From NCBI GenBank assembly GCA_964358055.1, contig CAYHNT010000001.1, positions 3,308-67,307 on the forward strand: a stretch of DNA of 64,000 nucleotides, in the 5' to 3' direction. The DNA comes from an uncultured archaeon. GTDB taxonomy: Archaea; Iainarchaeota; Iainarchaeia; Iainarchaeales; VGJJ01. Shown in pieces: positions 14,056-41,169 of the stretch (position 1 is the first letter of the stretch; the number at the start of each line of letters is the position of its first letter). Under the pieces are notes generated by a model, which did no database searches, was not told the DNA's origin, and worked only from the letters and a program-made list of their open reading frames with translations. Position numbers and translations under genes: made by a program.

Positions 14056-14133
14056 GGGCCCGTAGCTCAGCCTGGACTTCAGAGCACTTCCGTCCTAAGG
14101 AAGGGGTCGTGGGTTCGAATCCCACCGGGCTCG
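14056..14133 (+). tRNA. tRNA-Arg (anticodon CCU), with an unusually long 13-nt D-loop
   Basis: Acceptor GGGCCCG/CGGGCTC, D-stem GCTC/GAGC, anticodon stem CTTCC/GGAAG with loop GTCCTAA, T-arm GTGGG-TTCGAAT-CCCAC. Confidence 0.6.
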
Positions 14134-17418: not shown

Positions 17419-18054
17419 ATGAGGGTTGAGAAAAACATATTGGTAATCGGAATACTCATTTTAGGAATGAGTGGAATATGGGCCGCGAGCAATTGGCTGA
17501 CACCCACTGAGTCGAATTTTATTTCAACAACTTCTCCAAACAATACCAATCCCACTTATTTCTCCAGCCCCACTTCAATTGGTTATACGGATCTCTCCCA
17601 TAATTCAATTCAGACCAAAATGAGTTTGCAAGGAAAAGTAACGGACTTTAATGGTAATTTAGTAGATGATGCAAATTTAGGAGTAAAAATTAGTGATGCA
17701 AACTCCTGTACAACGAATGTGTTCTATGATTACACCTTCCCAAATTTGATCCAGGATGGATTCTTCAACGTGTTATTAGGACAAAACGAATTATTGAAAC
17801 TCAATTTTAATCAAGACTACTTCATGTGTCTGTATGTTAACAACGAACAGCTCTCCGGTCCCCAAGTGTTTCGTGGTGGACAAGGAGAGGTTCATTCAGA
17901 TGCATTATTTGATGGAAACGCGACAACTCCTTTAGATGTGAATTATTTGAACGTCAAGAATGATTTGAATGTTACAGGCAACCTCAAGTTTGGTTGTGGT
18001 AAGATTTATTGGAATGATTCGAATCAAACCCTCGTAATCCAGGTGAGCTGCTAA
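17419..18054 (+). CDS. Secreted hypothetical protein with signal peptide (operon gene 1)
   Basis: Signal peptide MRVEKNILVIGILILGMSGIWAASNW. GGAGGGAGAGG RBS-like element 8 nt upstream. TAATG overlap with the next gene. Confidence 0.5.
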   Translation: MRVEKNILVIGILILGMSGIWAASNWLTPTESNFISTTSPNNTNPTYFSSPTSIGYTDLSHNSIQTKMSLQGKVTDFNGNLVDDANLGVKISDANSCTTNVFYDYTFPNLIQDGFFNVLLGQNELLKLNFNQDYFMCLYVNNEQLSGPQVFRGGQGEVHSDALFDGNATTPLDVNYLNVKNDLNVTGNLKFGCGKIYWNDSNQTLVIQVSC

Positions 18055-18824
18055 TGCGAGAAATCACGATAGTATGCGTGTTCGTGATGGCGCTCTTCTT
18101 CGCAGGAGGAGTGTACAGCCAGTTTGCGCAAGGTAACGAGGTGCAGGAAAGTATCTCGCGCGGCCTTGCGTATTTGGAATCACGACCCCAGTATGACAGT
18201 GAGCTGTTAGTGATGCATATGATTCAAGCGAAAGGAAATCATCCTGAAGTAGGAACAGCCATTTCAAGTAAATCGTCAAAAACGGATGATTTTCATTATC
18301 CGATTAAGCAGTTTGTTTCGAATGAGCCGATTGAAATGGGGTCTGTTTCCAAAGAAACATTAGAAGCGCCATTTTACTCCGATTTTATTAAATATTTCAA
18401 ATGCGAACCATTATCTCAAGAGTGGATTAATTCTCTTTCAAATCTTTCAGACACAGAAGACGAACCTTACAACGGCGCGCATGCTCTGTGGATTCTTTCG
18501 TTGATTCGTCAAGATTATTTGGGTGGTCGTTGCGGGGATCATTCTGCTTTTGCTGAATCGTTAAATGTTGCTATTGATGCCAAAGCGATAGAATTGGAAT
18601 CGCGTTTAGAAGATAAGAAGAATTTTGATGCATGGGTCGAGCGAATCGCAGTTTTAGGTTTTGCAGGCCATTCGATTTCTCAAGAAAATGTCGAGTATAT
18701 TGTTTCAATGCAGGCTGAGAATGGCGGCTGGGCTCCTCAATTATTTGAGGGTGAGACATTGAATGAAGAACGTTCTCATACGACGGCTCTTGCTGTTTGG
18801 GCCTTGGTGGAGGCATCTTCATGA
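18054..18824 (+). CDS. Secreted protein with prenyltransferase/terpene-cyclase-like alpha/alpha-toroid repeat (operon gene 2)
   Basis: Signal peptide. QAENGGWA....SHTTALAVWAL resembles the PF00432-type repeat. Confidence 0.4.
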   Translation: MREITIVCVFVMALFFAGGVYSQFAQGNEVQESISRGLAYLESRPQYDSELLVMHMIQAKGNHPEVGTAISSKSSKTDDFHYPIKQFVSNEPIEMGSVSKETLEAPFYSDFIKYFKCEPLSQEWINSLSNLSDTEDEPYNGAHALWILSLIRQDYLGGRCGDHSAFAESLNVAIDAKAIELESRLEDKKNFDAWVERIAVLGFAGHSISQENVEYIVSMQAENGGWAPQLFEGETLNEERSHTTALAVWALVEASS

Positions 18825-19588
18825 ATTTCAAATTTTTTTTGGTCGGCTTTGCCCTGGTTGTTTTTTCGTTCTCGGCTTGGGCAGATTCCTGTGCGGATCC
18901 TTCTATTTCGATTGTGGTTGGCACGGACCGATGGTCTATTGGAAATACGTTGGATGTGAATCTCACGTTTTCGGCGAACCCCTCTCCTTCCTCTCTTTGT
19001 CATTGTTTAGAGACAGCTGACTGCGGGATGGAGTGGCAGTCGGATCACAATGGTTCGTGGAATAAAATTCCCAAGAATACCAATTCCGCCATTGATTTGA
19101 ATTGTTCTGACGTTGAATGTTGGACTGGTCGGAGTCATCCGACTGAGGATTTAATGCAAACTCGTTCAATTTCATGCATTGATCAAAATACTTTTCACAT
19201 TCGAGGGCATCATAAGTTTACGAATACGAGTAGTGCGGTAGTAACTGTGTACTGTTATCCTTCTCCAGCATGTACGCCTCCTGTGAGTGGAAATTTTACG
19301 GTGAATCAATCCTGCACATTCATCGCCGTTCCTGTCTTAGTGGACGGGAATTATTATATTGGTTCGAGTGGGTATGTAAAGCACAATGATTCGGATGTTA
19401 ATTTCTTTTCGAATGGTGCAAAGTATTTGAATATTCAGGATGGTGGAAGAATTGATTTGAATCATAGCATGATTTTCGCGGGATTGAGTTTTGAGCAAGG
19501 TTTATTGGGTGGGTTTCTTGGTTTGATTGGCATTTCTTTAGCTGGAGCTTATTCTTTTTTTATTCGAAGAAAGGGGGCGTTGGCGTGA
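18821..19588 (+). CDS. Cys-rich secreted protein with a C-terminal TM anchor (operon gene 3)
   Basis: Start at Met9 gives an ATGA overlap with the previous stop. Signal peptide, about 20 Cys, C-terminal GGFLGLIGISLAGAYSFFIRRKG anchor. Confidence 0.5.
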   Translation: MNFKFFLVGFALVVFSFSAWADSCADPSISIVVGTDRWSIGNTLDVNLTFSANPSPSSLCHCLETADCGMEWQSDHNGSWNKIPKNTNSAIDLNCSDVECWTGRSHPTEDLMQTRSISCIDQNTFHIRGHHKFTNTSSAVVTVYCYPSPACTPPVSGNFTVNQSCTFIAVPVLVDGNYYIGSSGYVKHNDSDVNFFSNGAKYLNIQDGGRIDLNHSMIFAGLSFEQGLLGGFLGLIGISLAGAYSFFIRRKGALA

Positions 19589-22350
19589 GGTCGTTTCTTT
19601 TTCTTTTCATTTTTTTGTTTTTTTCTTCTGTGGTTTTTGCTCAGTCATATCCTTTGATTTCGGATGGTTCTTTTGAGGAAAATTGTGCATTATCTAAGTG
19701 TGATTATAATGTTTCTCAAACGATTGGGGACGATTGGATTTTTTCCAAGAATGGTGCGGCGAATGTTCAGGAGTTTACGATTACTCAAGACTTGAATAGT
19801 TCAGATGGTTGGCCTTCTCATGGCAGTTATTATGGAAAGCTGGATGCGAATTCTATTGGTGGTTTTGCTCAGATTCAAAGCACGTTTGTTTTCAATGGTG
19901 GAATTATTTACTATGATGTGAACCATTATGGAGGGGCTCCTTCTTTTCCGAATCCTCCTTTTTCAGGTGCACATTTCCAAATTACCTATACCTATGAAGA
20001 TGGCAGTGGTGAGGTCACATTATTGGACTCTAACACGAATTTGATTGGTCTAGACAGAAATGTGGTATTGCCAAATCATCCTGGGAAGGTTTCTTTCAAA
20101 TTGACGAATCAGTTTCAGCAGCAGCATAATACGATTGTTTTTGACAATTTGCGCTGGCGACGTCTTCCCGTGATTGAAACAGATTCGTATCCTTTTGATT
20201 CGCATGTTTATACGGGTCAAAGCTTTTTTGTTGATATCAATTTTTCTACGGGAGCCTCTTGCCAACTTAAAGATGATAGCACAGGACAATCTTATTCAGC
20301 TACGTACATTGGGAATGGTATTTACCGTTCGAGTGGTTTGTCTTTTTCGAGTACTGGGTCGAGTCTGGTGAAGAATTTTAGTGCGATTTGTAATAGCGAG
20401 ACCAATGATGATTCTTTTTACTTGTTGAAGTTGAATAGGGATGGGTTGATTTCACAAAACGGTGGCTTTGATGTAAATGGAACGCCGTCCACGACTACTA
20501 GCACAAACACAAAGTTTCAGGATTGGAATGTGGGAAGAAGTGGAACAGGCTCGTTTGCCGTGATTATAGATAATTCATCGAGTAAGATTGCAGCAGATGG
20601 TCTTCATTATGGAATAATGACAGCAACGGGAATTGGGAGTGCAACGGATATTACTTCCCAGAGTCTTTTGCAAGGTGGAACCGTATTCTTTGATGTGAAT
20701 CGGATAACCGGACCAACGCTTGGTGATTCAAACTTCCAAGTGATTTATTTCCCATTGTCAGGCGGTTCTACGGTGTTGTTGAACCTTTCTTTCACCATTC
20801 AATCCAGTCAAATCGTTGGGTCTGACAAAAATGTGAGCATCCCTAATCAATTGGGTCATCTCCTTTTTCGTGTTCAAAACGTTGGAGTTGGACAAAACGC
20901 GCAACTGTATTTGGATAATGTACGATATTCAAGTCCAAAATTTTCTGAAAACACATCCTGTAAACAAGTTATTTACAAAGGGGACTCATCACAAAAGATT
21001 GATTTAGTCTTTGTTGGAAGTGGATTTGAAGACCAAAATCAATTTGAATCAACGATACGATTCGTGATAAATGAAGATGGCGACCAGAACGGATTATTTT
21101 CATTTGAACCATTCAAATCAAATATTAACAAATTCAATATATGGATGGTGGATGAATACAAAACATATACACTTCACCATCTGGACGTGTCGCCAATTAT
21201 CGATAAATGGACATTTGGTCCTTTTCCATTGATTGATGCGACGATAGCATGTCCATTTGGAAATGAATTTGCGCTATTATCACTTTATCCGCGATTCCGA
21301 TCTTACGTTGATGCTGACGCTAATTCAGCTTCATATACAGGTAAGCCTGCTCATTTTGCCCATGTCGGGTTGGGTGGCGAAATAGTTGGTGACTTGAATT
21401 ATCCTATTGACGTGGGTATTACTGATCCGTATGATCAAAATTGTCAAGGGAATGGACAATGGCCTGCGTGTGGGATTTCCGCCTATGATCCTAATGATTC
21501 ACAAAGGCTTTTCGCTCACGAATTTGGCCACAGTTTTGGTGGATTATTTGATGAATATAATAATGGAAGTTCCAGTAATGGAAGAGATACTGGGACACTA
21601 GCGAATTGTGATGCAACAAATATTTGTCCTAAATTCTCAGGATATTCAGGGATTGATTGTAATGCAGTATGTGGTTTTACAAACTGGTATCGTCCATATG
21701 CCGAAAACACTTTGATGGGGGATCACAGAAAACAAAAGATCGATTATGAGGAAGTAAGTGAAGACAGACTAACTGCCATTACTAATGGTTATTCAACTGC
21801 AACCATTTATGATCAAACAATTGATATTTTTCACACTTTCATCTTGAATGGGGCAATTGGGGCTGGCAATATGGACCTAAGCTCCGTGAATTTCGTTCCG
21901 GGAGCAGCTCCAGAGATGGTATTACCTACGAACCCACGCTACATGCTAAAAGAATTTTCGAGCACAAATGATGTGCTATATGATTACAACTTCGACATCC
22001 CCTCTGCTATTAATTTTGATCTTTTAAGTGGGGATGATGCAAATGGCAGTTATTCATTAATCGAGGATAGCAATACTCTGATCGATCTAGTAGATGTAAA
22101 CTTTTCTGTTAGAGCACCGTATTTACCCGGAGCAGTGAGAATAATTATTTATGACATAAATGGAACGCAGTTACTAGAAATCAGTACCTTGCCATTCACG
22201 ACTAATTTGTCGACTAGTATCGGATATGGCGGTGGATTTGTTACTTCGGCCAATTATAAAGTTGGATATAGTTTATTGCAACAACCTACAGTCGACCTCA
22301 ACAGTTCGAGTTATAAAGTACAATTGGGGTGGAATGCATATTATGACTAA
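19585..22350 (+). CDS. Secreted zinc metallopeptidase, M64 (IgA-peptidase)-like (operon gene 4)
   Basis: GTG start in a GTGA overlap. Signal peptide MRSFLFLFIFLFFSSVVFA. AHEFGHSFGGLFDEY (HExxH...DEY) at nt 21514-21558. KIDLVFVGSGFED resembles the M64 N-terminal motif. Confidence 0.55.
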   Translation: MRSFLFLFIFLFFSSVVFAQSYPLISDGSFEENCALSKCDYNVSQTIGDDWIFSKNGAANVQEFTITQDLNSSDGWPSHGSYYGKLDANSIGGFAQIQSTFVFNGGIIYYDVNHYGGAPSFPNPPFSGAHFQITYTYEDGSGEVTLLDSNTNLIGLDRNVVLPNHPGKVSFKLTNQFQQQHNTIVFDNLRWRRLPVIETDSYPFDSHVYTGQSFFVDINFSTGASCQLKDDSTGQSYSATYIGNGIYRSSGLSFSSTGSSLVKNFSAICNSETNDDSFYLLKLNRDGLISQNGGFDVNGTPSTTTSTNTKFQDWNVGRSGTGSFAVIIDNSSSKIAADGLHYGIMTATGIGSATDITSQSLLQGGTVFFDVNRITGPTLGDSNFQVIYFPLSGGSTVLLNLSFTIQSSQIVGSDKNVSIPNQLGHLLFRVQNVGVGQNAQLYLDNVRYSSPKFSENTSCKQVIYKGDSSQKIDLVFVGSGFEDQNQFESTIRFVINEDGDQNGLFSFEPFKSNINKFNIWMVDEYKTYTLHHLDVSPIIDKWTFGPFPLIDATIACPFGNEFALLSLYPRFRSYVDADANSASYTGKPAHFAHVGLGGEIVGDLNYPIDVGITDPYDQNCQGNGQWPACGISAYDPNDSQRLFAHEFGHSFGGLFDEYNNGSSSNGRDTGTLANCDATNICPKFSGYSGIDCNAVCGFTNWYRPYAENTLMGDHRKQKIDYEEVSEDRLTAITNGYSTATIYDQTIDIFHTFILNGAIGAGNMDLSSVNFVPGAAPEMVLPTNPRYMLKEFSSTNDVLYDYNFDIPSAINFDLLSGDDANGSYSLIEDSNTLIDLVDVNFSVRAPYLPGAVRIIIYDINGTQLLEISTLPFTTNLSTSIGYGGGFVTSANYKVGYSLLQQPTVDLNSSSYKVQLGWNAYYD

Positions 22351-22687
22351 TTTAACGCTTGGTCTCACAGTGATTGGTGTACTTTTATTTATTTTTGGGC
22401 TGAACGGGGTCATTGTTTCTTTTTCGAATTATTCAACATCGGCCGGATTGGAAAATACGTTTCCAAGTCCTACAGCATATTTTTGGGCTGGTATCGGGTC
22501 AATTTTGATTGTGATTTCTTCAATAACAATTACGCCTATTTATGAAAAATTCTTTAAGAAAAATAAATTCTTAATGAATATCTATATGAGATCGGTTATT
22601 TTTATTTTGCTTTTGTTGATTGGGTATTCAATTATTTTTCTCACGATGCAATTCCAAACAACTCCGGCGTTATATCCTGTACAGTGA
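22334..22687 (+). CDS. Small polytopic membrane protein (hypothetical)
   Basis: About 118 aa with 3-4 hydrophobic segments. Start overlaps the peptidase stop. Confidence 0.4.
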   Translation: MHIMTNLTLGLTVIGVLLFIFGLNGVIVSFSNYSTSAGLENTFPSPTAYFWAGIGSILIVISSITITPIYEKFFKKNKFLMNIYMRSVIFILLLLIGYSIIFLTMQFQTTPALYPVQ

Positions 22688-23001
22688 TTTTTCCAATGAA
22701 TATTGAAAAAATTAAAACAGTAATCGGTGTTGGAGTCTCTTTAATTAGCCTTTATTTTTTTTATTTGATGGCTTTATGGCTCCCGACAACCGGCGGGACT
22801 AATCCTACTCGCGAATTTTACATGAATATTTTGGGCCCTTTCTTGTTACTCTTGTCTGGATTATTGTGGATTAGTTCTATTAGAAAAAATATTCCATTTT
22901 TCAAACAATTTAATGATGGTAGTCAAGTAATAATATCTGTTCTTCTTCTCATTGTAGGATTTTTGTTTATGTTTGCGATGTCACCTTTAAGTGGGATTTG
23001 A
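22684..23001 (+). CDS. Small polytopic membrane protein (hypothetical)
   Basis: 105 aa with 3 hydrophobic segments. 4-nt overlap with the previous gene. Confidence 0.4.
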   Translation: MIFPMNIEKIKTVIGVGVSLISLYFFYLMALWLPTTGGTNPTREFYMNILGPFLLLLSGLLWISSIRKNIPFFKQFNDGSQVIISVLLLIVGFLFMFAMSPLSGI

Positions 23002-24372: not shown

Positions 24373-24399
24373 ACGGGATTTACCGAATCATATTTATAA

Positions 24400-27300
24400 A
24401 TGAAGAAAAACCTGCTTCCGAGTATGAGCGTCTTAGATTCACTCAAGAATGTTTATTTTGAGCTTGAGGACAAATATTACGCTTTTTTGGACAAACTTCA
24501 AACCAAACTCCCCGTGTATTCAGTCGTTGATCCGGTGGATAAAATACTCCCCAGTTTTGGTATTCTCCTTGCCCTTGTGGTAGCAATTTTGGGCTTTGGT
24601 TTGTTCTCCGCGCTGGCAGGAGTGGGCGGGGGATTTGAGACGGTTGTTGAATTCAATGACACGCAAGGAAACCCCTTGGAAGGCGTGCAGGTTTCATTTG
24701 AACGTGATGGAAAATTAATCGAAACACTCTTTACGAAAGAAGATGGTTCTGCAACCACGAGCGTGGGGGCAGGAACTTATTTTATTACGGCCTCCAAAGA
24801 AGGCTATGTCGAATTAGTGGAAGAAGTGGAAATCAATTCCGCATTCACTCGAATTTTTACGCTTTCAAGCGCGACCCCTGAAACCACGCAGCGTGCGTTG
24901 TTGATTCAGGATGCACAGCAAGGAATTGTGGGAATGCTTTCACCGGTGGCCATCTCTCTTGCGTTCTCCTGTCAATCGGGAACGCCTCCTTCGAATCAAA
25001 CCGTGTACAATGGAAATGTTTCATTTTTGCAGCCCGGTGACTGTACCGGATTGAGTGTAACGATTTCAGCCAATGGTTTCCTGACTAAAACACAATCAAT
25101 CTTAGGCGACACTACCATTGTCGTGTTGCAATCCACTGCCGCATTTGAGCCCCCTCCTGAAACGGAACAACCCGATGCGGGAAGTGTAGAAATCATTGCA
25201 GTGGAGACCGGCGGTGCACCCTTGGAACAAGCACAAATAAAATTATACAAAATTCCAAGTGTAGGTTCTAACATTCTTGCAGACCAAGGATTGTCCGACC
25301 CGAATGGATTGTCTACGTTTTCAAACGTTACTCCCGGAAAGCACATCGTGATTGTGTCCAAGGCCGGATATAAACAAACTCAGAGTGCGGAATTCCAAGT
25401 CAATGCGGGGGAGAAAGCCACGTTGAATGTGGAAGTCGCCAAAAGCAGTTCTAAACGAAAAGTGTTTGTGAAAATTTTGAGTAGCGCCAATCAAATTATT
25501 GTTCTAGGCTCGAGTGTTTCATTGTTCGTGCAAACCGCGGGTGGAAAATACATTGAGTACGAGTCCTTCACCAGCGACACGAATGGAATAGTAAGCGCAC
25601 CCCTTGCGGATTTCAATGGGAACACCCAACTTGTCGTAACGCACGGAGATTTTGTCACCAAAATTTTACTCAACACGGGGATTGTTTCGGAAGACGCAGT
25701 GAGTCCCATTCCTATCTTACTCGATCCCTTAGCCGCACCCGGTTCAAACGGTAGCAGTTCGAACGCCGTTGTGGCAGATGTGAAAGTAATAGACGAAGTA
25801 GGATTGAGCGTGGTGAATGCGACTGTTCACTTGTACACGCCGGATGCAAATGGGGTGTTAGTTGGAACGCTTCAAACGAATACCCTTGGAATTGCACGAT
25901 TTACCAATCTTCCCGCCGGCACTTACCAAGCCACTGCCTCTACAAGCGTAGGCGATGGGGCAAGTCCTAAAATACAAGGAGATTTGGGTAAGATTATTGT
26001 ACTCCCTGTAAGCTTGTCTCTCGGAAACGCATTGGTGCAAGTGACAGTGAAAGATGAATTAGGTAAAGTAGTGACGGATGCGAATGTTTTCATTTATTCA
26101 TTTGTTGAAAACACCCTTCAATCTGCAAGTAAAACAAACGCACAAGGGTTGGCACAATTGGGTGTGATAACCGGACAAAAGGTGTATGTAAAAGTCGAGA
26201 AGGCTACCTATCTTCCTTTTTCATCTGTGCCGTTTGACGTGATCAAGGATAACACGCACATTATTCAGCTTGAAGTTAGTCTTACGAGCGCCTCGCAGGG
26301 AGTGGATGTTTCATTAACGAGTATTTACGAGCTCTCTGCGACGCAGGGACCAATTCTCGCACAAGCATTAGTGCCGGGTAACACGTATGCTTTCCATTTT
26401 GCAGTCAAAACGCCCGTGCAACAAACAGGAATGAAAGCAGTGGTGCGCGTGAACAAAGATTCTCCTGCTGCACAAGGCGCAACGGATGTGGGTAGCATTG
26501 TAGGTGGAAGCACGGCCAAAGGTGGCGTGGCGTTTTACACGACGTATAATTCAAATGATGAATTTTCTCCCTTGATTCCTGCAGACTCAGGAGTTCCCTC
26601 GAAAGTGGCATTGAATACGCTTGGAGATGTGAACGGTGCCAGTTCGTTTGAGTATATTGTGAATGTTAAAATTAATCCCGCTGCGCTACCCAACACGGAC
26701 AAGTTGGATGTGAAGTTCCAATCTAAAGGCGGCACGCAAGTTTCGCCCTTGTATTTTGAATCCTTCACCATCGGCGCACCTCTCCCTGGGCAAGGGGATT
26801 TTTCATTTGTCTTTTTCGTTTCCACGCAAGGAGGGACAAAGACTCAGGTGAGCTCGTCTGTTCCTTTGGTGATGTTCGCCCAGCAAGACTATGTGTTAGA
26901 CTACGTGATAACGAATACCTCGGGTAGCAACTTCCCCAGCGCCACCATGCTCCTCACTACGAATACTCCCGCGTCATTCACCGCCGCACCCAATCAGGTC
27001 TCGTTACCCGGATTCAACAATAGTTCTTCCGTGAGCGGGAGCATCACCATCAAGAGCACGCAAGAGTGTAGCAGTTCTCAAACGCAGTGTTCTACTCTCA
27101 CAGCAAACTTGAGTGGGGTAGGAACAGGAAATTCACCCACGAATTATCCCTTGTCCATTTTCACTTCTCCCGAGAAACAACTCGCGATGAATATTACTCC
27201 TTCCTATTTGATTCCGGCTCAAACACAATTAGTGCAAGTAGTAGTAACGGATCAATTGAGTAATCTTGCAGGGACATCTAAAGGAGTACAAGTGGAAGGC

Positions 27301-30300
27301 CAATTGGAAAACTCCTCCGGCGCCCCTCTTGGAAGTTCTATTCTTTTTACGGAATCAACCAATGCATTGTTTTTTGCTTCCATTCCTGCCGCGAGTGAGG
27401 TAAGCCAATTGCGCGTCACGGCATCCGCGGCAGGCTACGTATCAGATGTGGTAGTTCTTCCAGTTTCCAATCAGATTTTGTTGAATTATTCGCAGGACTT
27501 TAGTTGCGTGAGTTTGAATCCAAATCCTTTGTCTTTCAACTTGGGCGCATCCGGCTCGTTGAGCGTGCAAACCATTAGTTGCCCAGAGGACATTGATCTT
27601 TACACCACGGGCTTCTCTGAGAATAGCACTGTGATTCAATTGGCCGTGAAGAATGGTTCGAATACCATCACCTCGAGCAACCCCTTGTCCTTGAATGAGA
27701 GTGAATCCAAAACGTTAAGCGTGCAATCTCCTTCGTATTTTGGACAATACCCTTTGTACGTGTATGCTAAGTACAAGAGTCAGTCTACTTATTCCTTAGT
27801 CAAGAATGTCGATGTGATTGTCAATCCTCTTGCAGGAAGTTCCACGTGTTTAAATTTGTCCAAGTACGCGTTTGACGTGAAAGACGGTAGCGACAATGCA
27901 ACCGTAGTCAACAATTGTAATCCCGGCGTCCACGATGCGTTTTTGCCCCGTGCTGTGGTGAATGTGAATGGGGTATACGGTCATGCCATTCCTCCTGTAC
28001 TCACTCCTGAGATGCAAAACCCTGGTAGTTTGGTTCCCTTTTCATACCGTGTGAGTATGGATTATGATAATTCAACTAATTTGGATGTCAATCACGATGA
28101 TTTTCCTCAGTTTTTCACGGCATCCAATTGGAACCGATATGCTATCACTAATCCTGCTAAGTTTTTTACCCTGAAAAGCGAATTTGCTGGAGTCACTCCT
28201 GTTTTGATTAATGATGATCATTACAATGGTAGCGATTTCATTCTTGAAAGTCCAAACGATCCCCAAACCCCGTGGGCGGCTCCTGCAAGCGTGCGTTCGG
28301 TGTTGTTTGAAACCACCTTTGTCACGAGAAATGAAGTCACGCTCGATGAACTTTGTTTTACCTCCACCAATATCGATGCTATTCTGGTTCGAATTGATGG
28401 GGTGGATGTGCAGACCGCCCACTCTCCCAAATGTGCAATCCCCAATTATCTTTTTTCACCCGGGCCCCATGCGATTCAGATTTTCATGTATGCGGTAGAA
28501 GGTCAGAACTATACGCTGACTGTCAAATACAAAGACGCCCCTGCCACCACCGTTGGAAGCAATACGGGTGGATACGCTCCTCTTTCGGATGGTAAAAACA
28601 AGGGATTCTTTGTGAGTCCCTTGTATGGTATTCTATACAGCAATGACACCAAGAAGAACGGCCCCCTGTTACACGGTCCCTTTTCCAATGGAGTCATTCC
28701 CTCTACCAATAGTGTAACGCCTAAGTACATTGACAATGTAGGCGGGAATATTCAGTCGATTATTCGTAACAAAGCCGGTGGAATGGAGCACTTGAAGCAG
28801 TCCTATCTGCATATTTCCTCCACCAACCCCTCCGTGCGTACCTTCATGCATCACACGGATGCATATGCCCAATACGTTGGGTTCGACGACGCGACGGGAC
28901 AACAAGATATTGTATTTGAGAACTTGGGAATGGAAGGAGAAAAGTACGGTCTTCTTACGTTAACCGATTATTCACTCCCCACCAGTGCGTCGGGTAAAAC
29001 ACTCGATGTTGGGATTCTCTTGGATTCGTCTCCTTCTATTATTTTGAATGAGAATGATGAAACCTCCTCTTCAAGCGGAACCGTGTATCAGGAAGGACTA
29101 TGTAAGACGTTAATTGACATTAAGCGCGGATTGGAGTATTATTCCAACGCCACCATCAACATGCAAGTCGCATTGATGCACGACGTGAGTGATACGTATC
29201 ATGCGTCCTCGAATCAAGCACAAAATCTCCCGTGTTTAGCACAGTTTCCCAACATCACGGAGTTATTCCCTGGGCAATTTCCTGGTTACACGGAAGGCAC
29301 GCATAATTTGGATGAAGCCTGGGCATGGGGTGCACAAAAGTTTGCCTCGCATGCGTTTTGGAAAAACTCGACCAAATTAATGATTGTTGTCACGGACAAT
29401 AAGCCCACGGGATTGGGAAACGGAAAACTCACGACGGATTGGCAAGGGAGTATTGAGGAGTTGCACGTGAATAATGCGGCAACCGAATTAAATAATCGTG
29501 GAATTCGTGGAGTGGTATTGTACAAGTATCCTTTGGAATCTTCTTCGGAAGCAAACCACCCGGCAGGAAGCGATACCAAGCAGGATGCCGTGGAAATGTA
29601 TGAGTTGTTTGCCCAGCAAACGAATGGTTTCACGGAGGCATTAGACTTTTCGGAGCTCATCAACAATAACAACCCCCATTCCTTTGATCAGGCCGAATAC
29701 AATAAGGTGGCCATTCGTTTGTTACAACATGCGTTTCCTACTAAACAGGAAACCATTGTGGTGAAACTGGTCTCGCATCCCTTAGACGCGTGTATTGGGG
29801 AGAATGGGGAAGTGGGTGTTACTGGAAGCTCCGCGTTGCCTAAGGTTTCCTACAATTGGCAATGGGGTTCCACGCAACAAAACATGTGTGATTTCAAAAC
29901 AAACGATCCTACGAACTTCCGTTACTGTGACGCCACCCAATTCATGATTACGCTTACGCAAAAATTGTTTGCATTGGAACAAGCCTATGCACCGGGTGCC
30001 ACCCCTGCACAGCAAGCCCAAATCCCTTCCCTCACAAGTTTTGATGTGTACGTGATGCGCGACGCATTGAATGATGATTTTAGGAATGACTTTGTGGAGT
30101 TCTTTGTGAACAGCAGCTTCACCGACGCTCCTGCGTATTTCAAAAGCGCATTGGGCGGAGCATGGAAAGACTATGTAAACCCCGCATTCAACAAACTTAC
30201 GTTTGAAATTGATGGAAACCCCACTAATTCAATTGTGTCAGCGGGATTGTATCGTGCGCAAATTCAAGTCACGTGGGAAAGTGACGTGGGCACGTTCTTC

Positions 30301-31704
30301 GTGGCGAGTTCTCCTTCCGCACAAATTACAGTTAAGCTGACCAAGCTCGGAGATGCAAGTGGACTTTCAGGTTATTCTGAATTCCTCGAGCTTCCCTTGG
30401 ATGGCCTAATTGGTTTGGATGATTCCTCTCTGACATTCCATCGCAATGGGTACGGTACTGCTTTCACCGGACAAACCTTGGACTTAGTTCCCACTCCCGG
30501 CTTAACGTTACGAACGTATCCCAGTCAGCCCGGGCAAACGGCGTTGAACACGGTCAACGTGCCCGCGCTTCCTGCATTCAAAGAGTTGAACACGCAGAAT
30601 AGGGGTGAATTGGTGAGCTTCAACAAGAGCAGCGGAACGCTTTCCCTGCGTCCAAGTGTCCCCGCTCCCGTGTTAGGAAAATGGTCAAGCAATTCCTCAG
30701 GACAAGGACACCTATATTATGGGATTAGCGAAACTTCTTCTCAAGGCGGACAGAGCTACGTTTCTCATTCAACGGACACTGGAACACCCTTATCTAAATG
30801 GGTTCCCATTGCATCGGATTTAACCCAGAGCACATTCGGTTGCACCACCCCTAATTGTGATATTTGTTTGGATGCCGGAGGAAACGCCTTTGTTTCTTCG
30901 CTCAAGTTTGATTTAAACCCGGGAACAGGTGCATGCGGGTTACGTCCTCCTCTTACAAAAAATACGGCGTTTGGTTTTACGTCAACGGGTAGCGTGAGTA
31001 ATGAGTCGTATTTGAGTACGGTGTTCTATCGTGTCCCTGGAAATGATTATTCCATTATTTTAGGATGTAACGATTCGTCCTCCCAACAAATTGGAGCGAT
31101 TGCCACCCATTCAAGTGTGATTTCGAACGGTGGCGCATCCGTTGCGGGATTGGATTTAGGCTCGTCTTCGTTAGAGGATCAACTTGACAATGCGGTTTCG
31201 TTATACGGCATGCTTAATTTGATGGAAAGCAACTACACCTGTATCAACAACACGGCAGGCACGAGTCGCGTGTATTGGAATGCTCCGCGTTTGCGCGAGG
31301 ACTTGGCGAATGCAAAACCCTCATTTGGTCACATAGGAAATTCGTGTGTGGCAACTGGTAATCCATTAGGTGCAGCCGGAACGTTCACCTTGCTCTCCAA
31401 GAATGGAATCATTTCTCAGTCTCAAACCACGTTGGGGATGTGTCCGTTGTACAACAATAATAATGCCCAGAATGGGTATTATGCAAAACTTGGTGTGCCT
31501 TTTCCGGTTGGCACGCAGATTCGTTTCTTAGGATCAGGTGCCATTACGGATGACCCCTTGAATGGGGTGGTGCAGTATCGTTCGAATGCTACTAATTGTA
31601 CGCAGTTGACTTCATTGAATTGTCCGGGTCCAGGAACTCCGTTTGATTTTTGCTCCGCAAACACGGAAAGGTATTGGTCGGGCACTCCTGCAATTAACCC
31701 GTAA
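24400..31704 (+). CDS. Giant (2434 aa) N-terminally anchored surface protein with CarboxypepD_reg/Ig-like repeats and a vWA (MIDAS) domain
   Basis: N-terminal TM ILLALVVAILGFGLFSALAGV. Repeated G(T/K)Y.I.ASK.GY modules. DSSPS (DxSxS) at about nt 29015-29030 and MIVVTDNKPTG at about nt 29380. No C-terminal anchor. Confidence 0.75.
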   Translation: MKKNLLPSMSVLDSLKNVYFELEDKYYAFLDKLQTKLPVYSVVDPVDKILPSFGILLALVVAILGFGLFSALAGVGGGFETVVEFNDTQGNPLEGVQVSFERDGKLIETLFTKEDGSATTSVGAGTYFITASKEGYVELVEEVEINSAFTRIFTLSSATPETTQRALLIQDAQQGIVGMLSPVAISLAFSCQSGTPPSNQTVYNGNVSFLQPGDCTGLSVTISANGFLTKTQSILGDTTIVVLQSTAAFEPPPETEQPDAGSVEIIAVETGGAPLEQAQIKLYKIPSVGSNILADQGLSDPNGLSTFSNVTPGKHIVIVSKAGYKQTQSAEFQVNAGEKATLNVEVAKSSSKRKVFVKILSSANQIIVLGSSVSLFVQTAGGKYIEYESFTSDTNGIVSAPLADFNGNTQLVVTHGDFVTKILLNTGIVSEDAVSPIPILLDPLAAPGSNGSSSNAVVADVKVIDEVGLSVVNATVHLYTPDANGVLVGTLQTNTLGIARFTNLPAGTYQATASTSVGDGASPKIQGDLGKIIVLPVSLSLGNALVQVTVKDELGKVVTDANVFIYSFVENTLQSASKTNAQGLAQLGVITGQKVYVKVEKATYLPFSSVPFDVIKDNTHIIQLEVSLTSASQGVDVSLTSIYELSATQGPILAQALVPGNTYAFHFAVKTPVQQTGMKAVVRVNKDSPAAQGATDVGSIVGGSTAKGGVAFYTTYNSNDEFSPLIPADSGVPSKVALNTLGDVNGASSFEYIVNVKINPAALPNTDKLDVKFQSKGGTQVSPLYFESFTIGAPLPGQGDFSFVFFVSTQGGTKTQVSSSVPLVMFAQQDYVLDYVITNTSGSNFPSATMLLTTNTPASFTAAPNQVSLPGFNNSSSVSGSITIKSTQECSSSQTQCSTLTANLSGVGTGNSPTNYPLSIFTSPEKQLAMNITPSYLIPAQTQLVQVVVTDQLSNLAGTSKGVQVEGQLENSSGAPLGSSILFTESTNALFFASIPAASEVSQLRVTASAAGYVSDVVVLPVSNQILLNYSQDFSCVSLNPNPLSFNLGASGSLSVQTISCPEDIDLYTTGFSENSTVIQLAVKNGSNTITSSNPLSLNESESKTLSVQSPSYFGQYPLYVYAKYKSQSTYSLVKNVDVIVNPLAGSSTCLNLSKYAFDVKDGSDNATVVNNCNPGVHDAFLPRAVVNVNGVYGHAIPPVLTPEMQNPGSLVPFSYRVSMDYDNSTNLDVNHDDFPQFFTASNWNRYAITNPAKFFTLKSEFAGVTPVLINDDHYNGSDFILESPNDPQTPWAAPASVRSVLFETTFVTRNEVTLDELCFTSTNIDAILVRIDGVDVQTAHSPKCAIPNYLFSPGPHAIQIFMYAVEGQNYTLTVKYKDAPATTVGSNTGGYAPLSDGKNKGFFVSPLYGILYSNDTKKNGPLLHGPFSNGVIPSTNSVTPKYIDNVGGNIQSIIRNKAGGMEHLKQSYLHISSTNPSVRTFMHHTDAYAQYVGFDDATGQQDIVFENLGMEGEKYGLLTLTDYSLPTSASGKTLDVGILLDSSPSIILNENDETSSSSGTVYQEGLCKTLIDIKRGLEYYSNATINMQVALMHDVSDTYHASSNQAQNLPCLAQFPNITELFPGQFPGYTEGTHNLDEAWAWGAQKFASHAFWKNSTKLMIVVTDNKPTGLGNGKLTTDWQGSIEELHVNNAATELNNRGIRGVVLYKYPLESSSEANHPAGSDTKQDAVEMYELFAQQTNGFTEALDFSELINNNNPHSFDQAEYNKVAIRLLQHAFPTKQETIVVKLVSHPLDACIGENGEVGVTGSSALPKVSYNWQWGSTQQNMCDFKTNDPTNFRYCDATQFMITLTQKLFALEQAYAPGATPAQQAQIPSLTSFDVYVMRDALNDDFRNDFVEFFVNSSFTDAPAYFKSALGGAWKDYVNPAFNKLTFEIDGNPTNSIVSAGLYRAQIQVTWESDVGTFFVASSPSAQITVKLTKLGDASGLSGYSEFLELPLDGLIGLDDSSLTFHRNGYGTAFTGQTLDLVPTPGLTLRTYPSQPGQTALNTVNVPALPAFKELNTQNRGELVSFNKSSGTLSLRPSVPAPVLGKWSSNSSGQGHLYYGISETSSQGGQSYVSHSTDTGTPLSKWVPIASDLTQSTFGCTTPNCDICLDAGGNAFVSSLKFDLNPGTGACGLRPPLTKNTAFGFTSTGSVSNESYLSTVFYRVPGNDYSIILGCNDSSSQQIGAIATHSSVISNGGASVAGLDLGSSSLEDQLDNAVSLYGMLNLMESNYTCINNTAGTSRVYWNAPRLREDLANAKPSFGHIGNSCVATGNPLGAAGTFTLLSKNGIISQSQTTLGMCPLYNNNNAQNGYYAKLGVPFPVGTQIRFLGSGAITDDPLNGVVQYRSNATNCTQLTSLNCPGPGTPFDFCSANTERYWSGTPAINP

Positions 31705-37096: not shown

Positions 37097-38458
37097 ATGT
37101 ACGGACTTAGACGGGCGCAGAGCTCATTGGAATACTTGCTTCTCATTGGGGGGGTCGTGCTGATTGCGGCCGTGGTGATGCTGGTTATTTTTACAAATGT
37201 GATTCCTGCGGGAGAAGGGATTTTACAAAATAACTTAGTTCAATCCGGAAATGAAATTACGGCATCCGGATACAAATGTGGAAACGGTTCGTTGGACGCC
37301 GGAGAGGCCTGCGATCCTGTTGGTTTTGCGTGTGTGAATGGAAATGCGTGTCAGAATAATTGTTCATGCGGTAGTCCTCCTTCTGCGTACGGGGGTCCCA
37401 TTTCATTGGATTGGGGAACTATTGCGCATACGGATTATGCGGAACTGGTTAGCACTGCACAAAAAAGTGTGAGTGGTTTCAAAATTAAAAACGATGGAAC
37501 TTCTCCTATTGTGATTGAAAAAATATCCGTGTTTTATTCGTTCGCCAGTCCGCACCCCGCACTGTACCTTCCCCTTCCTTCTTCTCTTTCTACTCTTTCG
37601 TTTCGCGACTCCTTTTCAGCGAATGTGCTGACGCTCAACAACGTTGCATCGGGATCAATCATCACGCTCATGAATCCCATTACGCTTGGCGCGGGAGAAG
37701 AGTGGACCGGTTCACTTGTTTTTAATCAACCCATTTTCCCTATTTATCAAGTGGATGCAGGAGGGGGCGTTTTTCATTATTTTCCCGCTGCGGGGTCCCA
37801 CTTCATGCAGGTGCAATTCACGGATGATGCGGGAGCCCTTCATCGTCCACCTTCATTGAATGATTTTTTGTCCTATGAGAAAGGAGATGGTTTAGGTGGA
37901 TTGGACCCCTACATTAACGTCTGCAATGCCGGAGCGAGTATTCCCTCCGGAGACGTGTTTGGGGTTGCCACTGACTTGTGTGACGGGGAACCCTGCGCGT
38001 ACACGAAGGACTTCGGATACTCCACCGTGTTTCAATTCCCCTTTCCTCTTCCCGTTTCATTTGATACTATTCATTCCCAGTTTTTTGCCACGCAGGATAA
38101 CGCCATTGTGGTGGGGGCAGGGCAGTATGGTGATGCCGACCCCTATTCGTTTGTGAAAGGAGGCGTTAGTTGTGACCCGATCATCTTTGATGATGTCGAG
38201 GAAACGGGAAACACTCCTGGAATCACTGCCTCTCCCGTGGATGCCGATGGGGTCTTTCCTGAAGTCAAGTATTTTGATGTAGATGGGCTCATTTCCCCTG
38301 GAGAAGACCGTGTATTCTTTTCCCTGGTGGGGGCCGACTCTCCTTCGTATGGGATGGATAGTCAAGGCTGGAGATGGTGGCGTTCGGGACACTATTTGGG
38401 GCCAGTGGATGGGTATCCGTTTCCTTTCTTTCTATTTCGATATAGCGTTCCTGGGTGA
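37097..38458 (+). CDS. Archaeal type IV pilin-like protein (class III signal peptide) with one Cys-rich repeat
   Basis: MYGLRRA|QSSLEYLLLIGGVVLIAAVVMLVIF is a prepilin-type signal. CGNGSLDAGEACD is a Myxococcus-type Cys-rich repeat. Confidence 0.65.
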   Translation: MYGLRRAQSSLEYLLLIGGVVLIAAVVMLVIFTNVIPAGEGILQNNLVQSGNEITASGYKCGNGSLDAGEACDPVGFACVNGNACQNNCSCGSPPSAYGGPISLDWGTIAHTDYAELVSTAQKSVSGFKIKNDGTSPIVIEKISVFYSFASPHPALYLPLPSSLSTLSFRDSFSANVLTLNNVASGSIITLMNPITLGAGEEWTGSLVFNQPIFPIYQVDAGGGVFHYFPAAGSHFMQVQFTDDAGALHRPPSLNDFLSYEKGDGLGGLDPYINVCNAGASIPSGDVFGVATDLCDGEPCAYTKDFGYSTVFQFPFPLPVSFDTIHSQFFATQDNAIVVGAGQYGDADPYSFVKGGVSCDPIIFDDVEETGNTPGITASPVDADGVFPEVKYFDVDGLISPGEDRVFFSLVGADSPSYGMDSQGWRWWRSGHYLGPVDGYPFPFFLFRYSVPG

Positions 38459-40935: not shown

Positions 40936-41169
40936 CTCCCTGCGTGTTTGTTGGATTGATAACTGACTTAAAAAAATAGGCCTCGGAGGGACCCTCGCAT
41001 AGGGAGCCCCTGGAAGGGTAAAATTAGGAACGATTGGAGTTGATGCGTACAAGTAAAGCAATAGGCGAAACGCGCGATTGCATGGTCAATAAGGTACGCA
41101 TCTAGAGAAACAATGGGCCTGAACTCGTTTAAAACCTATCCTTGGGGGGTTCTTTTTTTTAGAAACATA

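What the first reader, a model, noticed from the sequence alone, without database searches (positions are those of the whole stretch)
24400..31704. 2434-aa N-terminally anchored surface giant with Ig-like repeat region and a vWA/MIDAS domain
A single ORF takes up 11% of the window. It has one N-terminal TM. At least six CarboxypepD_reg/Ig-like modules span aa 80-700. A von Willebrand A domain has an intact DxSxS MIDAS motif (DSSPS, about nt 29015) and a TDN motif. The C-terminal region is Cys-containing and there is no C-terminal anchor. Giant adhesin-like proteins of this architecture are hallmarks of host-attached DPANN archaea and are candidates for cell-cell attachment. A beta-CASP nuclease gene sits immediately upstream and the low-GC protease operon lies just before that.
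Basis: partly seen in the sequence, partly recalled or inferred. Interest (0 to 1): 0.6.

Follow-up and report, generated by a model that had tools for sequence, protein, structure and literature searches.

The report
Giant conserved surface protein of Iainarchaeota
The ORF is a real, intact gene of about 2,426 codons for a membrane-anchored giant protein of a DPANN archaeon, and it belongs to a large family that I found described nowhere, defined by a conserved 40-residue cytoplasmic tag at one end and a 520-residue domain with no known structural relative at the other, with a metal-site (vWA) domain in between.

Summary
The ORF is real and intact. It is colinear over 99-100% of its length with ten orthologues (41-51% identity). 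These come from Candidatus Iainarchaeum / Diapherotrites genomes and sit in the same housekeeping gene order. A conserved TATA box contains the first ATG, so the true start is probably ATG 24424 (2,426 aa).

Confirmed:
- one N-terminal TM segment and no C-terminal anchor
- 26 Cys, 22 of them invariant
- a beta-CASP gene immediately upstream

Partly confirmed:
- Only four CarboxypepD_reg modules are detectable, not six.

New findings:
- About 1,800 aa are non-repetitive and match no Pfam family or solved structure.
- The C-terminal ~520 aa module is found in 688 cluster representatives, mostly at the C-terminal end of 2,200-3,100 aa proteins. Every taxonomic label seen was Diapherotrites or Micrarchaeota.
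- 71 of 83 full-length members also share an N-terminal cytoplasmic motif (LEDKYY..LD..PVY..DPIDK..PSF).

Most likely it is an N-in/C-out cell-surface spike with a metal-dependent binding head. Its function is inferred, not shown.

The parts
24390..24399 (+). TATA-box-like element (ATATTTATAA; core TTTATAAAT runs into the first ATG). It is the probable promoter of the giant gene.
   Evidence: TTTATAAAT is seen at the same distance (about 24-30 nt) upstream of the start codon in the window, L001 and L002. Promoter function is inferred from the usual archaeal TATA spacing (general knowledge).
24400..31704 (+). Maximal ORF of 2,434 codons plus stop. The probable CDS is 24424..31704 (2,426 aa), likely with a leaderless or near-leaderless mRNA.
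   Evidence: Searches give the ORF. P0001 (NCBI, 100% identical) is 2,426 aa. The homologues start at the position of M9. The TATA element overlaps ATG 24400.
24442..24558 (+). N-terminal cytoplasmic motif, aa 15-53 (LKNVYFELEDKYYAFLDKLQTKLPVYSVVDPVDKILPSF). The family consensus is LKxxYxxLEDKYYxxLDxxxxxIPVYxVxDPIDKxVPSF.
   Evidence: E23, Y27 and P51 are invariant, and P38, D44, D47, S52 and F53 are >=90% conserved, in 34 diverse members. The motif is found in 71 of 83 full-length family representatives that were retrieved only through their C-terminal module. There is no Pfam hit. The cytoplasmic location is inferred.
24559..24621 (+). Single transmembrane segment or signal anchor, aa 54-74 (GILLALVVAILGFGLFSALAG).
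   Evidence: It is the only sustained 19-residue Kyte-Doolittle window above 1.9 (peak 2.7 at aa 55). The position is conserved in all homologues.
24631..24885 (+). CarboxypepD_reg / Ig-like beta-sandwich module 1 (aa 78-162).
   Evidence: PF13620 scores 34.3 bits against a cut-off of 32.3. hhalign to the other modules gives probability 92-94%.
24886..25164 (+). Unassigned segment aa 163-255, carrying the invariant pair C191/C215.
   Evidence: There is no Pfam hit and no hhalign match to the four modules. The Cys residues are invariant.
25165..25455 (+). CarboxypepD_reg / SpaA-like module 2 (aa 256-352).
   Evidence: PF13620 scores 38.7 bits and PF17802 scores 29.4 bits.
25456..25770 (+). Unassigned segment aa 353-457.
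   Evidence: There is no Pfam hit. The best hhalign probability against the four modules is 17%.
25771..26025 (+). CarboxypepD_reg / SdrD_B-like module 3 (aa 458-542).
   Evidence: PF13620 scores 28.6 bits, which is below the cut-off. PF17210 scores 25.2 bits. hhalign to modules 1 and 4 gives probability about 92%.
26026..26289 (+). CarboxypepD_reg / Big_1-like module 4 (aa 543-630).
   Evidence: PF13620 scores 22.8 bits and PF02369 scores 24.3 bits, both below their cut-offs. hhalign to module 2 gives probability 94.7%.
26290..28986 (+). Conserved, non-repetitive region of unknown fold, aa 631-1529. It contains the Cys pairs C890/C897, C1036/C1061, C1150/C1173 and C1319/C1345.
   Evidence: There is no Pfam hit at E<=1. 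phmmer against PDB finds nothing. hhalign finds no internal repeats at probability >=50%. Mean per-column conservation is 0.50-0.74.
28987..29739 (+). von Willebrand A-fold domain, about aa 1530-1780.
29023..29037 (+). MIDAS DxSxS motif (D1542-S-S1544-P-S1546).
   Evidence: D, S and S are invariant in 11 sequences. A canonical D[TK]SGSM sits at the homologous position in more distant members.
29314..29316 (+). Invariant E1639 (motif [DN]EAW), two residues before helix alpha3. It is a candidate fourth MIDAS ligand.
   Evidence: It is invariant and its position relative to helix 152-160 of the model is known. The ligand role is inferred by analogy with the Glu in the integrin beta I-domain MIDAS (from memory).
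29392..29400 (+). TDN at the end of strand beta4 (T1665-D1666-N1667). D1666 is the fifth MIDAS position.
   Evidence: D1666 is invariant and T1665 is >=90% conserved. It aligns with ITDG of the alphaM I-domain.
29743..31329 (+). Family-defining C-terminal module, aa 1782-2310. It has a helical sub-domain followed by beta-rich sub-domains.
31330..31701 (+). Clade-specific Cys-containing tail, aa 2311-2434, ending in ..NTERYWSG... It has no hydrophobic anchor.
   Evidence: It lies outside the part of the profile matched by distant members. The model has low confidence here. C2316, C2348, C2400, C2408 and C2418 are invariant in the orthologous clade. There is no C-terminal TM segment.

Best explanation
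The gene encodes a giant membrane protein of about 2,426 aa from an Iainarchaeota (Diapherotrites, DPANN) archaeon. It probably has type II topology.

Layout, from N- to C-terminus:
- a conserved peptide of about 45 residues that stays in the cytoplasm
- one TM helix that anchors the protein
- an acidic, disulfide-stabilised ectodomain of about 2,350 residues that projects from the cell

The part of the ectodomain nearest the membrane contains four CarboxypepD_reg beta-sandwich modules. A long run of unique domains follows. The far end carries a vWA domain with an intact metal-ion-dependent adhesion site, followed directly by a ~520-residue module of unknown fold and a Cys-containing tail.

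The most likely mechanism is that the distal vWA/C-terminal head binds an acidic residue or glycan of a ligand through a divalent cation held by D1542, S1544, S1546, (E1639) and D1666. That would make the protein a cell-surface binding spike. The conserved cytoplasmic motif would tie the spike to an unidentified intracellular partner or to a dedicated insertion step.

Shown: the intact gene, the orthology and synteny, the single TM segment, the four beta-sandwich modules, the vWA fold (from a predicted model), the invariant MIDAS residues, and the family-wide N-terminal and C-terminal signatures.
Inferred: the topology, metal binding, ligand binding, and any role in cell-cell contact.
For: - Intact ORF, colinear with ten orthologues.
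- The same gene order (orf360 / beta-CASP / giant / CobA / transaldolase / Obg-GTPase / DUF192) in nine loci from other genomes. Neighbours are 58-84% identical; the giant's first 600 aa are 46-59% identical.
- A single N-terminal hydrophobic segment and none at the C-terminus. 206 acidic against 131 basic residues.
- 26 Cys, of which 22 are invariant at an overall column identity of 58%. This argues for structural disulfides and therefore an extracellular location.
- CarboxypepD_reg, SpaA, SdrD_B and Big_1 hits, which are domain types typical of secreted proteins.
- DxSxS, E1639 and D1666 are invariant. The registers coincide with an integrin I-domain.
- More distant family members carry a canonical D-T-S-G-S-M at the same place and give near-threshold Pfam VWA hits: 19-23.6 bits against a cut-off of 23.8, in five of the ten regions tested.
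- The family signatures at both termini.
Against: - There is no significant vWA HMM hit in the query itself. The vWA model has only moderate confidence (pLDDT 68.5), and I could not inspect the geometry of the MIDAS residues.
- The canonical Thr of the MIDAS is not conserved. E1639 as its replacement is my inference.
- The vWA domain is detectable in only about 28 of 86 full-length family members. It cannot be the family's core function.
- Conservation is even along the protein with no variable tip, and the gene is core and syntenic. This is unlike most adhesins that track hosts.
- N-x-S/T sequons are not enriched (34 observed, 30 expected).
- The charge bias around the TM segment is weak, so the topology is not proven.
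- There is no experimental or expression evidence, and no partner gene is conserved next to it across the wider family.
Confidence: 0.5

Rival explanations
1. It is a structural element of the cell envelope rather than an adhesin. In this reading it is a membrane-anchored pillar or spacer that holds, spaces or organises the S-layer or pseudo-periplasm. The C-terminal module would dock to the cell's own surface layer, or oligomerise, and the cytoplasmic motif would tie the envelope to the cell interior.
For: - The gene is core, vertically inherited and syntenic.
- Conservation is even along the whole length with no variable tip.
- The most conserved, family-defining part is the distal C-terminal module. 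That fits an invariant ligand of the cell itself.
- Genomes carry several paralogues, often in tandem. This is a large investment for ~1 Mb genomes.
- The protein is acidic with invariant cysteines.
Against: - No S-layer family is matched in Pfam or NCBIfam.
- In Micrarchaeota, which also carry this family, the S-layer protein identified experimentally is a different 101 kDa protein with a PF05123 domain (bioRxiv 10.1101/2021.04.28.441871).
- An intact MIDAS points to ligand capture, although a ligand belonging to the cell itself is not excluded.
- Sequons are not enriched.
Confidence: 0.25
2. The distal C-terminal module is an enzyme of a new fold, for example a glycan-, pseudomurein- or protein-cleaving activity. 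The long stalk would present it, and the vWA domain would serve as a substrate clamp, to remodel or breach a partner cell's envelope.
For: - The module has many invariant polar and aromatic residues: E1801, D1844, Q1847, D1888, D1897, W1922, Y1925, R2015, Y2018, N2064, T2065, R2068, D2158, D2171, W2293 and N2294.
- It is conserved across 688 representatives.
- Short versions of ~770-870 aa made of little more than this module exist in tandem arrays, as expected for an autonomous functional unit.
Against: - There is no sequence or fold similarity to any enzyme.
- No HExxH, GDSL or thioester motif is present.
- Invariant polar residues are equally expected in a binding site or an oligomer interface.
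Confidence: 0.1
3. The ORF is an artefact: an assembly chimera, a fusion of neighbouring genes, or a decaying pseudogene.
For: None found. The only correction needed is that the first eight codons are probably promoter rather than coding sequence.
Against: - The reading frame is uninterrupted.
- Ten independent full-length orthologues from different samples and assemblers align end to end.
- The GC content (0.467) is close to the window's (0.448).
- Both termini carry family signatures.
Confidence: 0.01

Closest known systems
vWA-containing pilus-tip adhesins of Gram-positive and Bacteroidota bacteria (RrgA, PitA, SpaC, Mfa5)
   Different: Those proteins have about 800-900 aa, are polymerised by sortases or type V pilus machinery, and sit on pilus tips. 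This protein has ~2,426 aa and is archaeal. It is anchored by its own N-terminal TM helix with a conserved cytoplasmic tag, has no LPxTG, and carries ~1,800 aa of unrelated unique sequence, including a C-terminal module with no fold relative.
Giant RTX/LapA-type bacterial adhesins (LapA, Aeromonas large adhesion protein; MpIBP-like)
   Different: From memory, those adhesins have stalks made of dozens of near-identical Big repeats, are exported C-terminus-first by type I secretion, have RTX repeats, and are retained in the outer membrane by an N-terminal plug. Here there are no RTX hits, no repeats beyond four modules, an N-terminal TM anchor, and an archaeal single-membrane envelope.
Integrin I / beta-I domains and other eukaryotic vWA adhesion domains (TRAP, CMG2, collagen VI, VWF A1)
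   Different: There is no detectable sequence homology above noise in the query. The domain has insertions (about 250 aa against about 190). The protein has one chain and one N-terminal anchor rather than a heterodimer with C-terminal anchors.
Other giant surface proteins of DPANN archaea (e.g. SPEARE proteins of Nanohaloarchaeota; large PKD/CARDB/LamG proteins of Micrarchaeota Mia14)
   Same: These are very large predicted surface proteins in small DPANN genomes and have been proposed to mediate host contact. The Mia14 proteins are described in PMC5498576. The SPEARE proteins are recalled from memory.
   Different: The domain content differs: protease, restriction-endonuclease, PKD, beta-propeller or LamG domains there, and none of them here. 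Those proteins are described as strain-specific or laterally acquired. This one is core and syntenic.
NOMO1 / CarboxypepD_reg bead-on-a-string proteins
   Same: They contain the same kind of beta-sandwich module (PF13620; weak or faint NOMO1-like matches to PF22902/PF22904).
   Different: The resemblance is at the level of single domains only and covers about 14% of the protein.

Membership tests
von Willebrand factor A (vWA) superfamily | Rossmann-like alpha/beta fold with a central beta-sheet flanked by helices, closest to known vWA domains | tested here: met
von Willebrand factor A (vWA) superfamily | MIDAS motif DxSxS at the end of strand beta1 | tested here: met
   D1542-x-S1544-x-S1546 follows the hydrophobic strand VGILL and is invariant in 11 sequences. 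It aligns with DGSGS of an integrin I-domain.
von Willebrand factor A (vWA) superfamily | Remaining MIDAS ligands: Thr (or Glu) before helix alpha3, and Asp at the end of strand beta4 | tested here: inconclusive
   D1666 (TDN) is invariant and aligned with ITDG. The Thr position is not conserved: T1634 occurs only in some sequences. The invariant E1639 lies two residues before the helix. Its role is inferred, and I could not inspect the coordinates.
von Willebrand factor A (vWA) superfamily | Significant match to a curated vWA sequence model (Pfam PF00092, PF13519 and related) | tested here: not met
   There is no hit at E<=1 on the full protein. The segment gives E 0.15 and 12.7 bits. The PDB profile search gives 0 hits at E<=10. 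More distant family members reach 19-23.6 bits against a cut-off of 23.8.
von Willebrand factor A (vWA) superfamily | Binding of a divalent cation and of a ligand carboxylate | not testable with these tools
   This needs protein biochemistry.
CarboxypepD_reg (PF13620) beta-sandwich repeats | Score above Pfam's gathering threshold | tested here: met
   The whole protein scores 80.8 bits against 32.3. Modules aa 78-162 (34.3 bits) and aa 256-352 (38.7 bits) pass on their own. Modules aa 458-542 (28.6 bits) and aa 543-630 (22.8 bits) do not pass, but hhalign links them to the others.
Archaeal S-layer proteins (S_layer_N PF05123, TIGR01564/01567 types) | Match to an S-layer domain model | tested here: not met
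   No such hit appears in Pfam or NCBIfam. The Micrarchaeota S-layer protein is a different 101 kDa protein.
Alpha-2-macroglobulin-like proteins | Thioester motif CGEQ and full MG-domain series | tested here: not met
   There is no CGEQ or CxEQ motif. The bMG3/MG4 matches are faint and lie on the generic beta-sandwich modules.
RTX / type I-secreted giant adhesins | RTX nonapeptide repeats and long arrays of near-identical Big repeats | tested here: not met
   There is no HemolysinCabind or comparable hit. hhalign finds no internal repeats beyond four modules.
Archaeosortase (PGF-CTERM) or sortase (LPxTG) anchored surface proteins | C-terminal sorting signal with a hydrophobic helix | tested here: not met
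   There is no hydrophobic segment after aa 74 except two marginal windows at aa 359 and 532. The C-terminus is ...NTERYWSGTPAINP. There is no LPxTG. The only PGF is internal, at aa 870.
The unnamed family defined here (N-motif + TM + ... + C-module) | N-terminal LEDKYY..LD..PVY..DPIDK..PSF motif directly before a single TM segment | tested here: met
   The motif is aa 15-53 of the query. It is present in 71 of 83 full-length representatives.
The unnamed family defined here (N-motif + TM + ... + C-module) | C-terminal ~520-aa module at or near the C-terminal end | tested here: met
   Query aa 1782-2310. The profile finds 688 representatives, 413 of them at E<=1e-30.

The most novel reading that the evidence does not exclude
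The family may be a lineage-defining, possibly essential surface organelle of Iainarchaeota and Micrarchaeota. In this reading it is a single-chain, integrin-like transmembrane link. A conserved cytoplasmic peptide of about 40 residues would engage an intracellular partner such as the cytoskeleton, the division machinery or a dedicated insertase. An extracellular head, built from a MIDAS vWA domain and a 520-residue domain of a new fold, would engage a conserved ligand on a partner cell. That would make it the principal contact device of these DPANN lineages. Its tandem paralogues would provide different specificities.
Probability: 0.15. Interest if true: 0.8.

Novelty: new variant of a known kind. 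Interest (0 to 1): 0.55.

Why it matters
How DPANN archaea touch, recognise and exploit other cells is a central open question, and for Iainarchaeota no host or contact apparatus is known. This gene offers a concrete candidate that can be followed up.

- It is not a strain-specific oddity. It belongs to a family of at least 688 sequence clusters with a fixed architecture.
- Paralogues of about 7 kb each are kept in genomes of roughly 1 Mb, sometimes as two or three copies in tandem.
- Two of its defining parts, the cytoplasmic N-terminal tag and the C-terminal module, have no Pfam model and no solved or recognisable structural relative. They are targets for structure determination and for new family models.
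- The invariant MIDAS gives an immediate experimental handle, through metal-dependent binding and point mutants.

If the family instead turns out to be an envelope pillar, it would still revise the picture of the cell envelope in these lineages.

Tried and rejected
1. Pfam and NCBIfam on the whole protein and on ten segments. Nothing beyond aa 630. NCBIfam gave nothing at all.
2. PDB sequence searches with the vWA profile, the C-terminal profile and the middle region. No hits, apart from a chance flagellin match at E 0.36.
3. The search for homologous proteins with the C-terminal alignment A3 returned nothing, although the family exists. I take this to be an artefact of the word pre-filter. 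The exhaustive search replaced it.
4. The search for homologous proteins with the N-terminal motif alignment returned only five short contig-end fragments. Whether the motif occurs on other architectures therefore remains open. In 460 kb of related loci it occurs only on family members.
5. Foldseek against AFDB50 was unavailable. Foldseek against PDB was used instead.
6. Internal-repeat search by hhalign over aa 160-460, 631-1490 and 1830-2434. No repeats, so the 'repeat stalk' picture is rejected.
7. Alpha-2-macroglobulin, zincin, RGD, LPxTG and PGF-CTERM motifs. All absent, except one internal PGF that is not at the C-terminus.
8. S-layer identity was rejected on domain content and on the Micrarchaeota S-layer paper.
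9. Literature searches combining DPANN or Diapherotrites with von Willebrand, carboxypeptidase regulatory, giant or surface proteins, and reading of three papers. I found no description of this family. The library is incomplete, so this is not proof of absence.
10. A functional link to the upstream beta-CASP gene was considered and set aside. The synteny holds only in the close clade. Other subfamilies sit next to a Hel308-like helicase, Cdc6, SepF and PolD or in tandem arrays. In addition, the giant gene has its own TATA box.
Full report
**1. The observation**

The + strand is open from 24400 to 31704, which is 2,434 codons. This is not an assembly artefact. A search of about 5.8 billion proteins returned the identical protein (P0001, NCBI, on a 115 kb contig). 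It also returned ten full-length homologues of 2,444-2,509 aa at 41-51% identity, covering 99-100% of the query. Two of them are named 'Candidatus Diapherotrites archaeon'. The 11-sequence alignment has 58% mean column identity. Conservation is even along the whole length, at 0.49-0.75 per 50-residue block, and no segment is hypervariable.

The start codon needs correcting. The sequence just upstream reads ...CATATTTATAAATGAAG... The element TTTATAAAT recurs at the same distance, about 24-30 nt, upstream of the annotated ATG of the orthologues in L001 and L002. The homologues and P0001 begin at the residue that corresponds to M9. ATG 24400 is therefore part of a TATA box. The CDS most probably starts at 24424 (2,426 aa) on a leaderless or nearly leaderless transcript. 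This inference rests on the usual archaeal TATA-to-start spacing.

**2. Anatomy**

*(a) N-terminal motif and TM segment.* Residues 15-53 form a motif, LKNVYFELEDKYYAFLDKLQTKLPVYSVVDPVDKILPSF. It is followed directly by the only strong hydrophobic segment, aa 54-74.

*(b) Beta-sandwich modules.* Four CarboxypepD_reg-type modules are detectable, at aa 78-162, 256-352, 458-542 and 543-630.
- Two of them pass Pfam's threshold on their own.
- hhalign links them to one another at 92-95% probability, except the aa 256-352 / aa 458-542 pair at 43%.
- The interleaved segments aa 163-255 and 353-457 match neither Pfam nor the four modules.

*(c) Middle region.* Residues 631-1529 match nothing in Pfam (E<=1) or in PDB sequences. 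They contain no internal repeats. They do carry invariant cysteine pairs.

*(d) The vWA domain (aa ~1530-1780).*
- Sequence models fail. There is no VWA hit at E<=1 on the protein, only E 0.15 on the segment, and nothing in PDB with the family profile.
- An AlphaFold2 model of aa 1490-1830, built on the 11-sequence alignment (pLDDT 68.5, pTM 0.69, core strands 84-97), has the alternating strand/helix order of a vWA domain.
- D1542, S1544, S1546, E1639 and D1666 are invariant.
DxSxS aligns with DGSGS, and TDN with ITDG.
- More distant family members have a canonical D-[TK]-S-G-S-M at the homologous place, 190-270 aa upstream of the C-terminal module. Five of the ten regions tested reach 19-23.6 bits on Pfam VWA, against a cut-off of 23.8.
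- I conclude that the vWA domain is real but divergent. The fourth MIDAS ligand is uncertain. The canonical Thr is not conserved, and the invariant E1639, two residues before helix alpha3, may replace it, as Glu does in integrin beta subunits (memory and inference).

*(e) C-terminal module and tail.* Residues 1782-2310 form a module that is modelled with reasonable confidence (pLDDT 73.2, pTM 0.70). It has a helical sub-domain followed by beta-rich sub-domains. It has no relative in PDB:
- best Foldseek E 0.08
- no hit with the sequence profile
- no shared Pfam match in any of 11 members at E<=10

Residues 2311-2434 are a clade-specific tail that contains cysteines and is poorly modelled. There is no C-terminal hydrophobic anchor and no LPxTG or PGF-CTERM signal.

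*Overall composition.* The protein is acidic (206 D+E against 131 K+R). It has 26 Cys, 22 of them invariant. It has 34 N-x-S/T sequons against about 30 expected, so sequons are not enriched.

**3. Context and family**

*Synteny of the close clade.* The order orf360(-) / beta-CASP nuclease / giant / CobA-BtuR / transaldolase / Obg-like GTPase / DUF192 is kept in nine loci from other genomes, seven of them with both flanks. Neighbours are 58-84% identical. The giant's first 600 residues are 46-59% identical. The gene is thus a vertically inherited core gene of this Iainarchaeal clade. It evolves somewhat faster than its housekeeping neighbours but is far from hypervariable. The upstream gene is a CPSF73/FttA-like beta-CASP enzyme.

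*Breadth of the family.* I ran an exhaustive profile search with the C-terminal region against 1.84 billion cluster representatives.
- It found 688 proteins at E<=1e-3, 571 at E<=1e-10 and 413 at E<=1e-30.
- The module, about 520 residues, lies at the C-terminal end of proteins that are mostly 2,200-3,100 aa long. The median of the full-length ones is 2,404 aa.
- Every taxonomic label I could retrieve was Candidatus Diapherotrites/Iainarchaeum or Candidatus Micrarchaeota. The one exception is a locus labelled Thaumarchaeota that has the Iainarchaeal synteny.
- The labels are sparse, so the family's true range is untested.

*The N-terminal motif travels with the C-module.* 71 of 83 full-length representatives, fetched only through their C-terminal module, carry the N-terminal motif immediately before a TM segment. 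In 460 kb of related loci the motif occurs only on proteins of this family. The two ends define the family, while the middle varies.

*The vWA domain is a subfamily feature.* It is recognisable in only about 28 of 86 full-length members, namely the query's clade plus several others.

*Paralogues.* Other subfamilies sit in a different conserved neighbourhood: Hel308-like helicase / giant / Cdc6 / SepF / PolD. Others form tandem arrays of two or three paralogues. Short forms of ~770-870 aa, with the C-module but without the N-motif, also occur in tandem. Several genomes hold at least two paralogues.

**4. Mechanism**

The best-supported reading is an N-in/C-out (type II) membrane protein whose ~2,350-residue ectodomain projects from the cell.
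- Support for the orientation: the invariant cysteines, domain types typical of secreted proteins, and a weak charge difference across the TM segment. The orientation is inferred, not shown.
- The head, farthest from the membrane, combines a MIDAS-bearing vWA domain with the conserved C-terminal module. By analogy with every characterised extracellular vWA domain, it would capture a ligand carboxylate through a bound divalent cation.
- The strictly conserved cytoplasmic peptide implies a conserved intracellular interaction, either an anchoring or signalling partner or a dedicated insertion step.
- I give this reading about 0.5.

The main rival, at about 0.25, is a structural envelope pillar that docks to the cell's own surface layer. 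The core, syntenic, evenly conserved and multi-copy nature of the family favours it. So does the fact that the distal module is the most conserved part. Against it, no S-layer domain is present, and the experimentally identified Micrarchaeota S-layer protein is a different 101 kDa protein.

A new-fold enzyme at the tip (about 0.1) cannot be excluded. An artefact is excluded for practical purposes.

**5. Comparison with what is known**

The protein works most like the vWA-bearing tip adhesins (RrgA, PitA, SpaC, Mfa5) and the giant LapA-type adhesins, whose ligand-binding region with a vWA domain lies at the cell-distal C-terminal end.

It is not a member of those families:
- It has no sortase or pilus signals.
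- It has no RTX repeats.
- It has no long repeat array.
- It has its own N-terminal TM anchor.

It also differs from the giant DPANN surface proteins described so far, such as the PKD/CARDB/LamG proteins of Mia14 (PMC5498576) and the SPEARE proteins (from memory). The domain content differs, and this protein is core rather than strain-specific.

I found no paper describing this family. Sources call its members 'carboxypeptidase regulatory-like domain-containing protein' or 'hypothetical protein'.

**6. Verdict**

The gene itself is already deposited but uncharacterised. What is new is the recognition of a large family of fixed architecture, with two undescribed signature modules and a divergent but intact MIDAS vWA domain. 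I rate it a new variant of a known kind (giant prokaryotic surface proteins), with interest 0.55. It is a good, concrete lead for DPANN cell-surface biology, but no functional evidence is available here.

Noticed in passing
window 17419-23001: There are six + strand ORFs with low GC (0.32-0.43 against 0.448 for the window). Four have N-terminal signal-like hydrophobic segments, including a 921-aa protein with HEFGH and a weak Peptidase_M64 match. Two are small proteins with three TM segments each. The block lies between orf360 and the beta-CASP gene. None of the six ORFs has a counterpart in any syntenic locus, and in most of those loci the two flanking genes lie 60-250 nt apart. It is probably a strain-specific inserted island of secreted proteins.
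   Followed up: partly
window 24390-24426; L001 ~9960-10003; L002 ~6412-6455: The TTTATAAAT element is conserved 24-30 nt upstream of the giant gene's start codon in three genomes. This implies the gene has its own promoter and a leaderless or near-leaderless mRNA. The first ATG of the ORF (24400) is part of this element.
   Followed up: partly
window 37097-38458 and 38523-39611: Two adjacent genes encode proteins with archaeal class III (type IV pilin-like) signal peptides. The second also has DUF4215 Cys-rich repeats. The distant family member P0012 ends in Cys-rich repeats that look similar (not tested). Syntenic loci carry a class III signal protein at the same place (L002).
   Followed up: no
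window 14056-14133 (+): Rfam finds a third tRNA here (54.8 bits) that ARAGORN did not report. It may be an atypical or intron-containing archaeal tRNA.
   Followed up: no
L021 (1-19000), L023 (1-18920), L018, L028, L015, L016: Distant family members occur as tandem arrays of two or three giant paralogues. In L015 and L016 there are three consecutive ~770-870 aa short forms that carry the C-terminal module but lack the N-terminal motif.
   Followed up: partly
L003 and L027: A second orthologous subfamily (P0012, P0035) sits in a different conserved neighbourhood: Hel308-like helicase / giant / Cdc6-Orc1 / SepF / PolD large and small subunits / NOG1-like GTPase / SecDF.
   Followed up: partly
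L007 (JAGVNS010000057.1): The record is titled 'Thaumarchaeota archaeon isolate DeMMO3_24', yet it carries the orthologue at 44% identity in the exact Iainarchaeal gene order. The label or the binning of this contig is probably wrong.
   Followed up: no
window 39631-41061 and 42013-43335 (- strand): Two class II aminoacyl-tRNA synthetase paralogues of the Asp/Asn/Lys type lie about 1 kb apart. The same pair is seen in L001.
   Followed up: no
tool behaviour: The word-indexed homologue search returned nothing for the 11-sequence C-terminal alignment, although the exhaustive search later found 688 relatives. For the N-terminal motif it returned only short fragments. Negative results from that tool in alignment mode should not be read as absence.
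   Followed up: yes
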